A DNA stretch of 64,000 nt from Escherichia coli (GCF_003334405.1 NZ_QOWM01000003.1); one strand, 5' to 3'. Shown: positions 63,465 to 64,000, counted from the first letter of the stretch. Notes: generated by a model not told the origin, from the letters alone. Translations and numbers: made by a program.

Positions 63465-64000
63465 ATGAGCGGAAAACCAGCGGCGCGTCAGGGAGATATG
63501 ACTCAGTATGGCGGTCCCATTGTCCAGGGTTCGGCAGGTGTAAGAATTGGCGCGCCCACCGGCGTGGCGTGCTCGGTGTGTCCGGGCGGGATGACTTCGG
63601 GCAACCCGGTAAATCCGCTGCTGGGGGCGAAGGTGCTGCCCGGCGAGACGGACCTTGCGCTGCCCGGCCCGCTGCCGTTCATTCTCTCCCGCACCTACAG
63701 CAGCTACCGGACCAGGACACCCGCGCCGGTGGGAGTGTTTGGCCCCGGCTGGAAAGCGCCTTCTGATATCCGCTTACAGCTACGCGATGATGCACTGGTA
63801 CTCAACGACAACGGCGGGCGGAGCATTCACTTTGAGCCGCTGCTGCCGGGGGAGGCGGTGTACAGCCGCAGCGAGTCAATGTGGCTGGTGCGCGGTGGTA
63901 AGGCAGCGCAGCCGGACGGCCACACGCTGGCGCGGCTGTGGGGGGCGCTGCCGCCGGATATCCGGTTAAGCCCGCATCTTTACCTGGCGACCAACAGCGC
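63465..64000 (+). CDS. rhsE: Rhs-family polymorphic toxin, N-terminal PAAR-containing part (3' end lies beyond window)
   Basis: ATG 63465 with gaagga RBS; MSGKPAARQGDMTQYGG... contains a literal PAAR motif; open to window end; GC-rich; symbol by position downstream of yncH; not in ORF track because it has no stop in the window. Confidence 0.8.
   Translation, partial: MSGKPAARQGDMTQYGGPIVQGSAGVRIGAPTGVACSVCPGGMTSGNPVNPLLGAKVLPGETDLALPGPLPFILSRTYSSYRTRTPAPVGVFGPGWKAPSDIRLQLRDDALVLNDNGGRSIHFEPLLPGEAVYSRSESMWLVRGGKAAQPDGHTLARLWGALPPDIRLSPHLYLATNS

What the first reader, a model, noticed from the sequence alone, without database searches (positions are those of the whole stretch)
63465..63500. 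The Rhs protein begins with a literal PAAR motif
The first residues are MSGKPAARQGDMTQYGGPIVQGSAGVRIG.... A PAAR domain caps the VgrG trimer, so the downstream Rhs is positioned to be loaded directly onto the adjacent VgrG. This ORF is missing from the ORF track because it has no stop codon inside the window.
Basis: partly seen in the sequence, partly recalled or inferred. Interest (0 to 1): 0.4.

Follow-up and report, generated by a model that had tools for sequence, protein, structure and literature searches.

The report
One-third PAAR at Rhs toxin start
The E. coli Rhs toxin gene next to vgrG does start with a PAAR motif, but it is only one of the three repeats that make a PAAR spike cap, a short 'PAAR-like' tag already known in E. 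coli Rhs proteins and in Pseudomonas Tse5.

Summary
An ATG at 63465 opens a frame that runs off the window end and reads MSGKPAARQGDMTQYGGPIVQGSAGVRIG. It is the N-terminus of the E. coli 'RHS element core protein' at the rhsE locus, 66 bp after a standard vgrG.

There is no complete PAAR domain. Residues 1-29 are a single PAAR repeat, matching only the third repeat of solved PAAR cones and of curated PAAR profiles, at sub-threshold scores. Residues 30-47 are a CxxC linker, and the DUF6531 plug of the Rhs cage starts at residue 48.

The closest solved relative is P. aeruginosa Tse5. Its 47-residue N-terminal fragment is cut off before PVNP, with residues 1-29 disordered and 30-47 held inside the cage. 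AlphaFold2 likewise leaves residues 1-31 unstructured here, while a natural three-repeat relative folds into a PAAR cone.

The single repeat is more conserved than the plug domain, so it is functional, most likely as a reduced VgrG-docking tag. How one third of a cone caps a trimeric spike is unresolved.

E. coli 'PAAR-Rhs' and Tse5's 'cryptic PAAR-like' domain are already in the literature: known biology, low interest.

The parts
61290..63398 (+). vgrG (T6SS spike protein, 702 aa from the RefSeq-annotated start; an alternative in-frame ATG lies at 61254)
   Evidence: TIGR03361 at 624 bits and TIGR01646 at 447 bits. Pfam Phage_GPD, Phage_base_V and Gp5_trimer_C, with no adaptor or toxin domain. 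Annotated 'type VI secretion system tip protein VgrG' in 100%-identical genomes.
63399..63464 (+). 66-bp vgrG-rhs spacer with ribosome-binding site AAGGAA (63453-63458) and an in-frame TGA (63459-63461) just before the rhs start. It holds no chaperone gene and no predicted terminator.
   Evidence: Sequence read directly. The terminator scan finds nothing here.
63465..63551 (+). Rhs residues 1-29: a single PAAR-like repeat (literal PAAR at 63477-63488), equivalent to the third repeat of a PAAR domain
   Evidence: PDB and profile matches cover only the third repeat. It aligns column for column under the third repeat of three-repeat relatives. Mean conservation is 3.27 bits per site in 45 non-redundant homologs. 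AlphaFold2 pLDDT is below 50.
63552..63605 (+). Rhs residues 30-47: linker with a near-invariant CxxC (C36 and C39). By homology to Tse5 it is threaded into the cage and ends at the N-terminal self-cleavage site (N47|P48).
   Evidence: Tse5 chain 8cp6_B starts at the residue aligned to P48. Tse5 is cleaved at K47|P48 and residues 30-47 are anchored inside the shell (PMC10684867). C36 is present in 43 of 45 and C39 in 44 of 45 homologs, and P48-V49 are invariant.
63606..63833 (+). Rhs residues 48-123: DUF6531, the N-terminal plug of the Rhs cage
   Evidence: Pfam PF20148 at E=1.3e-19 over residues 46-123. AlphaFold2 pLDDT is about 82-94. It aligns to the Tse5 plug.
63834..64000 (+). Rhs residues 124-178: start of the YD-repeat shell, cut by the window end (the full protein is 1407 aa in identical genomes)
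   Evidence: NF041261 RHS_core matches 1-178 to profile positions 1-178 of 1261 at 387 bits. The full-length CDS is read in L001.

Best explanation
This is the start of a classical E. coli RHS-core T6SS effector at the rhsE locus, probably co-transcribed with its own vgrG. Its first 29 residues are a reduced PAAR element: one repeat, homologous to the third repeat of a PAAR cone. An 18-residue CxxC linker follows, which enters the Rhs cage through the DUF6531 plug. By homology to Tse5 the chain is probably self-cleaved before P48, with the N-terminal fragment staying non-covalently attached. Shown here: the architecture, the homology, the strong conservation, the lack of an autonomous predicted fold, and the VgrG adjacency. 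Inferred: the repeat is disordered until it meets the blunt end of the cognate VgrG beta-helix, then folds onto it and tethers the toxin-filled cage to the spike without a chaperone. It works like a PAAR-type adaptor but is not a complete PAAR domain. It lacks two of the three sectors and the zinc-binding residues of the cone tip. Whether it caps the spike asymmetrically or in several copies is open.
For: 1. Identity of the locus: the region is 100% identical to many E. coli genomes, where it is annotated 'VgrG | RHS element core protein'. It lies between yncH and ydcD. NF041261 RHS_core matches from profile position 1.
2. One repeat only: Pfam and NCBIfam PAAR hits are partial and sub-threshold, and DUF6531 starts at residue 46. 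All PAAR structures that match align their third repeat to residues 2-29 (2-28 for 4jiw_D, 2-32 for 8gra_J).
3. Relatives with three repeats share the same linker and plug. Short forms align exactly under repeat 3.
4. Function is retained: residues 1-29 average 3.27 bits per site, against 2.76 for the plug and 1.73 further downstream, in 45 homologs sharing less than 75% identity. Of 103 short forms, 90 keep the literal PAAR.
5. Structure: AlphaFold2 gives pLDDT below 50 for residues 1-31 and about 90 from residue 48. The three-repeat control folds with pLDDT 85-95 and matches 4jiw_D and 4jiv_D. In the Tse5 cryo-EM structure, residues 1-29 are unresolved, 30-47 lie inside the shell, and cleavage is at K47|P48.
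6. VgrG link: the gap is 66 bp, with no terminator and no chaperone gene. Tse5 delivery needs the adjacent VgrG1c (PMC4067218). The VgrG beside a three-repeat relative is homologous to this VgrG up to the last beta-helix rungs.
Against: No direct evidence here or in the papers read shows that a single repeat binds the VgrG tip. The stretch was invisible in the Tse5 structure, and the paper's claim that it is 'essential for secretion' cites VgrG-dependence studies rather than N-terminal deletions. The statement that Ma et al. 2017 showed the PAAR part is needed for Rhs translocation is second-hand, because the paper was not available. A canonical PAAR fills the whole triangular tip, and one repeat cannot. 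The position of the zinc-ligand His is variable (K, Y or S). Some short-form and long-form relatives have no vgrG nearby.
Confidence: 0.7

Rival explanations
1. One reading: the N-terminus is a complete PAAR domain that forms the conical cap on the VgrG trimer, as in VCA0105 or c1882.
For: The literal PAAR motif and the full repeat consensus (GKPAARxGDxxxxGGxIxxGSxxVxIG) are present. The E. coli literature calls these proteins PAAR-Rhs.
Against: Only about 29 residues precede the linker, and the plug begins at residue 46-48. PAAR profiles are covered only at positions 68-94 of 94, at 14-17 bits. No further repeats exist upstream (an in-frame stop lies at 63459) or in any frame of the 64-kb window. 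AlphaFold2 predicts no fold for residues 1-31, while a three-repeat control folds as PAAR.
Confidence: 0.04
2. Vestigial remnant: the repeat is left over from an ancestral PAAR-Rhs fusion and no longer mediates loading. The cage is recruited through other contacts, or a separate complete PAAR caps the spike.
For: Two thirds of the domain and the zinc ligands are missing. Tse5 has even lost the literal PAAR. Residues 1-29 are disordered in isolated Tse5. Rhs effectors that bind VgrG without a PAAR are known (background knowledge, for example A. baumannii Tse15; not tested here).
Against: Residues 1-29 are the best-conserved part of the first 178 residues across homologs down to about 40% identity. 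A vestige would decay. The exact N-terminus (M-S-G-K before PAAR) is itself conserved. In the O157 Sakai T6SS island, no other PAAR-like sequence is encoded in 50 kb.
Confidence: 0.12
3. Composite cone: the single repeat completes a PAAR-like cone only by assembling in three copies (up to three Rhs per VgrG trimer), or together with other partial PAAR pieces, on the three-fold symmetric tip.
For: The PAAR cone is pseudo-three-fold, with one sequence repeat per sector (established from 4JIV and 4JIW). The natural relative P0058 has three repeats, all with the short-type spacing and with Tyr at the His position, and it is predicted to form a PAAR cone. Split PAAR domains have a precedent in prePAAR effectors (PMC7773334, listed). 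The disorder of the isolated repeat fits folding on assembly.
Against: There are no stoichiometry data. Because the linker enters the cage directly after G29, three cages of about 130-155 kDa would have to meet at one point on the spike tip inside the baseplate, which is sterically demanding. Published VgrG-Rhs complexes with full PAAR carry one Rhs. No partial-PAAR partner gene is present in the window.
Confidence: 0.1
4. prePAAR-type effector: the N-terminal AARxxD is a prePAAR motif that completes a downstream PAAR domain and needs an Eag chaperone.
For: AARQGDMTQY resembles the prePAAR consensus AARxxDxxxH (consensus recalled from Ahmad et al. 2020, PMC7773334).
Against: No transmembrane segment and no downstream PAAR domain follow the motif (Pfam; the AlphaFold2 model is plug and shell from residue 48). 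No eag/DUF1795 gene lies between vgrG and rhs. His is replaced by Tyr.
Confidence: 0.01

Closest known systems
Pseudomonas aeruginosa Tse5 / RhsP1 (PA2684; PDB 8CP6)
   Same: It has the same architecture: an N-terminal fragment of about 47 residues, then PVNP, the DUF6531 plug and the YD shell (E=3e-18). It is encoded directly after its VgrG (VgrG1c) with no chaperone, and delivery depends on that VgrG. Its N-terminal fragment is described as PAAR-like, with residues 1-29 disordered and 30-47 inside the shell.
   Different: Tse5 has lost the literal P-A-A-R (KPVSR in the Tse5-like representative P0139), whereas the E. coli protein keeps it. The residue before the cleavage site is K47 in Tse5 and N47 here. 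The C-terminal toxin is different.
E. coli K-12-type RHS element core proteins (RhsA-E; NCBIfam NF041261), called 'PAAR-Rhs', 'Rhs-Nb' or 'T6SS2-Rhs' in the E. coli literature
   Same: This is the same family. The window protein matches the profile from position 1, sits at the rhsE locus, and the 3-kb region is found in 4248 of 5426 complete E. coli genomes. The O157 Sakai T6SS-island Rhs has the same single-repeat start.
   Different: Nothing substantive differs. Here the locus keeps an intact vgrG.
Canonical PAAR proteins (V. cholerae VCA0105, 4JIV; E. coli c1882, 4JIW; Pfam PF05488; NCBIfam NF033420)
   Same: The repeat consensus is the same, including PAAR, GD, GG, I, GS and V-I-G, and the best alignment is to the third repeat.
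   Different: This protein has one repeat instead of three (about 29 aa against about 90). There is no His or Cys at the zinc-ligand position. There is no autonomous predicted fold. Scores are far below the family thresholds.
Three-repeat PAAR-Rhs relatives in the same Rhs clade (representatives P0103, P0079, P0104, P0058)
   Same: They share a homologous CxxC linker, PVNP site, plug and shell. One of them (P0103) follows a homologous VgrG inside a T6SS cluster.
   Different: They carry about 54-61 extra N-terminal residues (repeats 1 and 2). Pfam lists PAAR_motif as a confident hit for the two looked up, P0103 and P0079. One of them, P0058, was modelled and folds as a PAAR cone. In an unsupported NJ tree they sit at four or more separate places among short forms.
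prePAAR / Eag-dependent Rhs effectors (P. protegens RhsA, 7Q97; Serratia Rhs1 and Rhs2)
   Same: They have the Rhs cage, the DUF6531 plug and VgrG dependence. 7q97_A aligns to residues 41-165.
   Different: Those effectors have N-terminal regions of 240-420 residues, with transmembrane helices, a full PAAR domain and a dedicated EagR chaperone. None of these is present here.

Membership tests
PAAR domain (Pfam PF05488 / NCBIfam NF033420) | Profile match above the family threshold over most of the model | tested here: not met
   Pfam gives E=0.05 (model positions 51-69 of 70) and E=0.51 (1-21 of 70), both partial. NCBIfam gives 14.4-17.4 bits against a cut-off of 124, covering profile positions 68-94 of 94 only. 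Three-repeat relatives score 52-70 bits over positions 21-94.
PAAR domain (Pfam PF05488 / NCBIfam NF033420) | Three consecutive PAAR repeats (about 90 aa) forming a pseudo-three-fold cone | tested here: not met
   One repeat (residues 1-29) comes before the linker and plug. There is no upstream extension (stop at 63459-61). No other repeat is found in any frame of the window.
PAAR domain (Pfam PF05488 / NCBIfam NF033420) | Repeat-level consensus (PAAR, GD, GG, GS, V-I-G) | tested here: met
   Residues 2-29 align to the third repeat of 4jiv_D (2-28 for 4jiw_D, 2-32 for 8gra_J) and of 9rce_c. The consensus positions are at least 90% conserved in homologs.
PAAR domain (Pfam PF05488 / NCBIfam NF033420) | Zinc-binding His/Cys ligands stabilising the cone vertex | tested here: not met
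   The position aligned to His is Tyr15 here and varies (K, Y or S) in short forms. Three-repeat relatives of the P0103 type keep H, H and C. Which residues are ligands is taken from the published PAAR structures, not recomputed.
PAAR domain (Pfam PF05488 / NCBIfam NF033420) | Autonomously folded domain | tested here: not met
   AlphaFold2 pLDDT is below 50 with no secondary structure for residues 1-31. The three-repeat control scores 85-95 and matches PAAR structures. This is a prediction only.
PAAR domain (Pfam PF05488 / NCBIfam NF033420) | Binds the blunt end of the VgrG beta-helix | not testable with these tools
   Only single-chain prediction is available. Genetic adjacency to vgrG is met.
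RHS element core protein (NCBIfam NF041261), Tse5-type T6SS Rhs effector | End-to-end match to the RHS_core profile starting at position 1 | tested here: met
   Residues 1-178 match profile positions 1-178 of 1261 at 387 bits. The 2000-bit cut-off cannot be reached by a truncated ORF. The identical full-length CDS (1407 aa) is annotated 'RHS element core protein' by PGAP.
RHS element core protein (NCBIfam NF041261), Tse5-type T6SS Rhs effector | DUF6531 N-terminal plug directly after a short N-terminal fragment, with a conserved P-V-N-P cleavage-site motif | tested here: met
   DUF6531 covers residues 46-123 at E=1.3e-19. P48 and V49 are invariant, and N50 and P51 at least 90% conserved. Tse5 chain B starts at the aligned Pro. 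Cleavage itself is not testable here.
RHS element core protein (NCBIfam NF041261), Tse5-type T6SS Rhs effector | YD-repeat shell, PxxxxDPxGL motif and variable C-terminal toxin | tested here: met
   These lie outside the window but are present in the identical full-length protein in L001 (..PIQVIDPMGL.. followed by about 150 aa).
prePAAR effectors (Eag-chaperoned) | AARxxDxxxH motif plus transmembrane region(s), a downstream PAAR domain and an adjacent eag/DUF1795 gene | tested here: not met
   AARQGDMTQY has Tyr in place of His. No transmembrane region or second PAAR segment is present. No gene lies between vgrG and rhs.

The most novel reading that the evidence does not exclude
The classical E. 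coli / Tse5-type Rhs N-terminus is a one-repeat 'minimal PAAR' that cannot cap a spike alone. It would fold only on the three-fold VgrG tip. Either three copies form a homotrimeric cone, putting up to three Rhs cages on one spike, or a single copy binds asymmetrically and leaves two thirds of the tip open. Either outcome would be a mode of spike capping and loading not yet described. It would also imply that the rule 'one PAAR per spike' does not hold for the most common Rhs class in Enterobacteria.
Probability: 0.12. Interest if true: 0.6.

Novelty: already known. Interest (0 to 1): 0.2.

Why it matters
As stated, a PAAR motif at the start of an Rhs next to vgrG is textbook E. coli T6SS biology, and the region is present in most sequenced E. 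coli genomes. The useful correction is that this is a single conserved repeat, not a PAAR domain. Annotation pipelines and papers that label such proteins 'PAAR domain-containing' overstate what is there. How one third of a cone attaches a cage of about 155 kDa to a trimeric spike has not been shown structurally, including for the well-studied Tse5.

Tried and rejected
1. I looked for the missing two repeats. An in-frame stop lies directly upstream. Profile HMMs built from the three-repeat and single-repeat N-termini found nothing else in the six-frame translation of the whole window or of the 50-kb O157 Sakai T6SS island. The island's small hypothetical proteins are not PAAR.
2. Pairwise scoring of the window repeat against repeats 1, 2 and 3 of long-form relatives did not discriminate (13-17 identities each). 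The assignment to repeat 3 rests on the profile and PDB alignments, on its position before the linker, on the 'GK-PAAR' start and 'IG' end, and on the 10-residue D-to-GS spacing.
3. The prePAAR classification was considered and rejected, because there is no transmembrane region, no second PAAR piece and no Eag gene.
4. The primary paper on E. coli PAAR-Rhs (Ma et al. 2017, PMID 27871130) is not held, so its claim that the PAAR part is needed for translocation is cited only second-hand. One literature search failed for lack of capacity.
5. A VgrG-Rhs complex prediction was considered. The structure tool predicts single chains, returns no coordinates, and allowed only two jobs. A linker-fused construct would have had no reliable read-out, so the second job went to a positive control instead.
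6. Whether the window's own strain has a T6SS core cluster or a stand-alone PAAR elsewhere could not be established, because the window holds only the orphan vgrG-rhs island.

Full report
**Observation**

The sequence at 63465-63500 is as described. The ATG is at 63465, preceded by AAGGAA (63453-63458) and by an in-frame TGA (63459-63461). The frame stays open to base 64000 and gives 178 codons that start MSGKPAARQGDMTQYGGPIVQGSAGVRIGAPTGVACSVCPGG. The ORF lister omits ORFs that run off the source, which explains its absence from the ORF track. The ORF ending 66 bp upstream (61254, or 61290 as annotated, to 63398) is a standard VgrG. It scores 624 bits on TIGR03361 and has the Pfam domains Phage_GPD, Phage_base_V and Gp5_trimer_C, with no extra adaptor or toxin domain. 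No terminator-like site lies between the two genes.

**Locus**

The 3-kb vgrG-rhs junction is 100% identical to many complete E. coli genomes and is present in 4248 of 5426 of them. In strain 720632 the order is yncG, yncH, vgrG, 'RHS element core protein' (1407 aa), ydcD, then ISAs1 copies. This is the rhsE locus, an orphan vgrG-rhs island far from any T6SS core genes. The window is colinear with that record over its last 15 kb at 99.9% identity. The protein matches NCBIfam NF041261 (RHS_core) from profile position 1.

**Is it a PAAR domain?**

- Pfam assigns residues 46-123 to DUF6531 at E=1.3e-19. It gives only two partial, sub-threshold PAAR_motif hits (E=0.05 and 0.51) within residues 2-29.
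- NCBIfam's PAAR model scores 14-17 bits against a cut-off of 124 and covers only profile positions 68-94 of 94.
- Against all PDB sequences, the first 47 residues return PAAR proteins as the four best hits (4jiv_D at E=0.008, then 9rce_c, 4jiw_D and 8gra_J). In every case residues 2-29 (2-28 for 4jiw_D, 2-32 for 8gra_J) align to the third, C-terminal repeat, about residues 67-93 or 71-98 of the PAAR protein.

The motif is therefore real and PAAR-derived, but it is one repeat out of three.

The missing repeats are not hidden elsewhere. There is a stop codon directly upstream. Profile HMMs built from three-repeat and single-repeat N-termini find nothing else in the six-frame translation of the 64-kb window.

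**Closest solved relative**

The best PDB match to the 178 residues is P. aeruginosa Tse5 (8cp6_B, E=3e-18), and its chain B begins exactly at the residue aligned to P48. The Tse5 paper (PMC10684867) reports these points:

- The protein is cut between K47 and P48.
- Residues 30-47 are anchored inside the shell, mostly by the DUF6531 plug.
- The cut is not needed for activity.

The authors call the fragment 'PAAR-like'. Others call it a 'cryptic PAAR-like domain' (PMC7376260), or a PAAR-like fold that lacks the P-A-A-R signature (PMC9637101). Tse5 delivery depends on the adjacent VgrG1c (PMC4067218). By alignment, the E. coli protein has the same layout:

- repeat, residues 1-29
- CxxC linker, residues 30-47
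- predicted cleavage at N47|P48
- plug, residues 48-123

**Family survey**

A search of 1.84 billion representative proteins found 603 relatives. Among the best 150:

- 103 begin like the window protein, with the plug motif at position 40-56 (mode 48).
- 90 of these keep a literal PAAR, and 97 have a CxxC in the linker.
- Six complete proteins and two fragments carry extra N-terminal sequence that forms two further PAAR repeats, followed by the same linker.

In a joint alignment, the short forms sit column for column under repeat 3 plus linker of the long forms, with 'MSGKPAAR' under 'INGKPAAR'. Pfam's precomputed hits list PAAR_motif for the two long forms looked up and not for the one short form looked up. 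One long form follows a VgrG inside a T6SS cluster. That VgrG is homologous to the window's VgrG right up to the last beta-helix rungs, so the docking platform is of the same type.

In a neighbour-joining tree of the plug region only (no support values), long forms appear at four or more separate places among short forms. This suggests repeated gain or loss, or exchange of the N-terminal module.

**Is the single repeat functional?**

In 45 short-form homologs sharing less than 75% identity, mean information content per site is:

| Segment | Residues | Bits per site |
|---|---|---|
| PAAR-like repeat | 1-29 | 3.27 |
| Linker | 30-47 | 3.04 |
| DUF6531 plug | 48-123 | 2.76 |
| After the plug | 124-178 | 1.73 |

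Residues M1, G3, P5, A6, R8, D11, I19, G22, S23, V26, I28 and G29 are at least 90% conserved. This argues against a decaying remnant. The position that holds a zinc-ligand His in canonical repeats is Tyr here and varies (K, Y or S) across the family.

**Structure prediction**

With a 40-sequence alignment, AlphaFold2 models residues 48-460 confidently, with most 10-residue blocks at pLDDT 80-97. Residues 1-31 score below 50 with no secondary structure, which mirrors the Tse5 map.

As a control, the N-terminal 101 residues of the natural three-repeat relative P0058 were predicted. All three of its repeats have the short-type spacing and Tyr at the His position. The model has pLDDT 85-95 for residues 1-83. 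Its best structural matches are c1882 (4jiw_D, TM 0.65/0.70), VCA0105 (4jiv_D) and phage PAAR proteins. Three such repeats are therefore predicted to make a PAAR cone, and one is not predicted to fold alone.

**Mechanism**

The best-supported reading (confidence 0.7) is that the repeat is a reduced, PAAR-derived docking tag. It would be disordered in the free protein and would fold onto the blunt end of the co-encoded VgrG, tethering the toxin-filled cage without a chaperone. The linker passes through the plug and is probably self-cleaved but retained.

The architecture, homology, conservation and gene linkage are shown here. The binding itself, and its stoichiometry, are inferred.

The rivals are:

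- A complete PAAR cap (0.04). This is contradicted by the domain boundaries.
- A vestigial remnant, with loading by other contacts or with a separate PAAR (0.12). This is disfavoured by the conservation.
- A composite cone made of three copies (0.10). It fits the pseudo-three-fold PAAR fold and the P0058 control, but it is sterically demanding and untested.
- A prePAAR effector (0.01). There is no transmembrane region, no second PAAR piece and no Eag gene.

In the O157:H7 Sakai T6SS island, vgrG-rhs lies inside the cluster and the Rhs again starts with a single repeat. No other PAAR-like sequence is detectable in 50 kb. That fits the tag serving the PAAR role there, but other PAAR-containing Rhs genes exist elsewhere in that genome (PMC7216683).

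**Novelty**

E. coli long Rhs proteins are already called PAAR-Rhs and treated as T6SS effectors (PMC7216683; PMC6730261). The homologous Tse5 N-terminus is already described as PAAR-like. No paper in the searched library resolves how this short form sits on VgrG. The finding is correct but known. The added value here is the explicit demonstration that it is one third of a PAAR domain. Interest is 0.2.

Noticed in passing
window 63570-63581 (Rhs C36-S-V-C39): A CxxC motif in the 18-residue linker is nearly invariant (C36 in 43 of 45 homologs, C39 in 44 of 45). It is kept in both single-repeat and three-repeat relatives, and Tse5-like proteins have it too (QCSTC). In Tse5 this segment lies inside the cage next to the N-terminal cleavage site. 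Its role (disulfide, metal site or cleavage geometry) is not explained in the papers read.
   Followed up: partly
window 60000-61200: An AT-rich stretch (30-37% GC) lies between yncH and vgrG. vgrG is 50-63% GC and the rhs core start 60-67% GC. The sharp composition steps are typical of an acquired island boundary and of a possibly silenced promoter region. Two weak sigma-70-like sites lie at 60907 and 61242.
   Followed up: no
window 61254 versus 61290: The vgrG ORF has an in-frame ATG 36 bp upstream of the RefSeq-annotated start (MCGLLFIFTEVA-MSTGLRF...). The VgrG profiles begin to match only after the annotated start, so the shorter form is probably correct.
   Followed up: no
hits H1 and H2 (NZ_CP178690.1, NZ_AP042519.1): In some otherwise identical E. 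coli genomes, an IS1A element is inserted within the 3-kb vgrG-rhs stretch. The match is split into two pieces, and an IS1 transposase is annotated between 'Vgr family protein' and 'RHS element core protein'. The locus is therefore being inactivated in some lineages.
   Followed up: no
P0058 (representative protein, residues 1-101): This natural Rhs relative has three PAAR repeats that all show the short-type 10-residue D-to-GS spacing and Tyr at the zinc-ligand position. It looks like a re-triplication of the single-repeat type. It is predicted to fold as a PAAR cone without His ligands.
   Followed up: partly
tree of the plug region: Three-repeat and single-repeat N-termini are interleaved in a tree built only from the downstream plug region (four or more separate placements). 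This suggests repeated loss, gain or recombinational exchange of the N-terminal module. The tree is neighbour-joining without support values.
   Followed up: partly
L008 (E. coli O157:H7 Sakai, 240-272 kb, T6SS island at aspV): The complete T6SS island contains hcp-vgrG-rhs, and the Rhs has the same single-repeat start (MGGKPAARQGDMTRKG...). No stand-alone PAAR is detectable in six-frame HMM scans or among the small hypothetical ORFs.
   Followed up: partly
L001 18673-19155 (ydcD) and downstream, outside the window: The full-length Rhs is followed by ydcD, which overlaps its 3' end by 17 bp and is the presumed immunity gene. Two ISAs1-family (H-repeat) transposase genes come next, one of them a pseudogene. 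This is the classical Rhs element layout.
   Followed up: no
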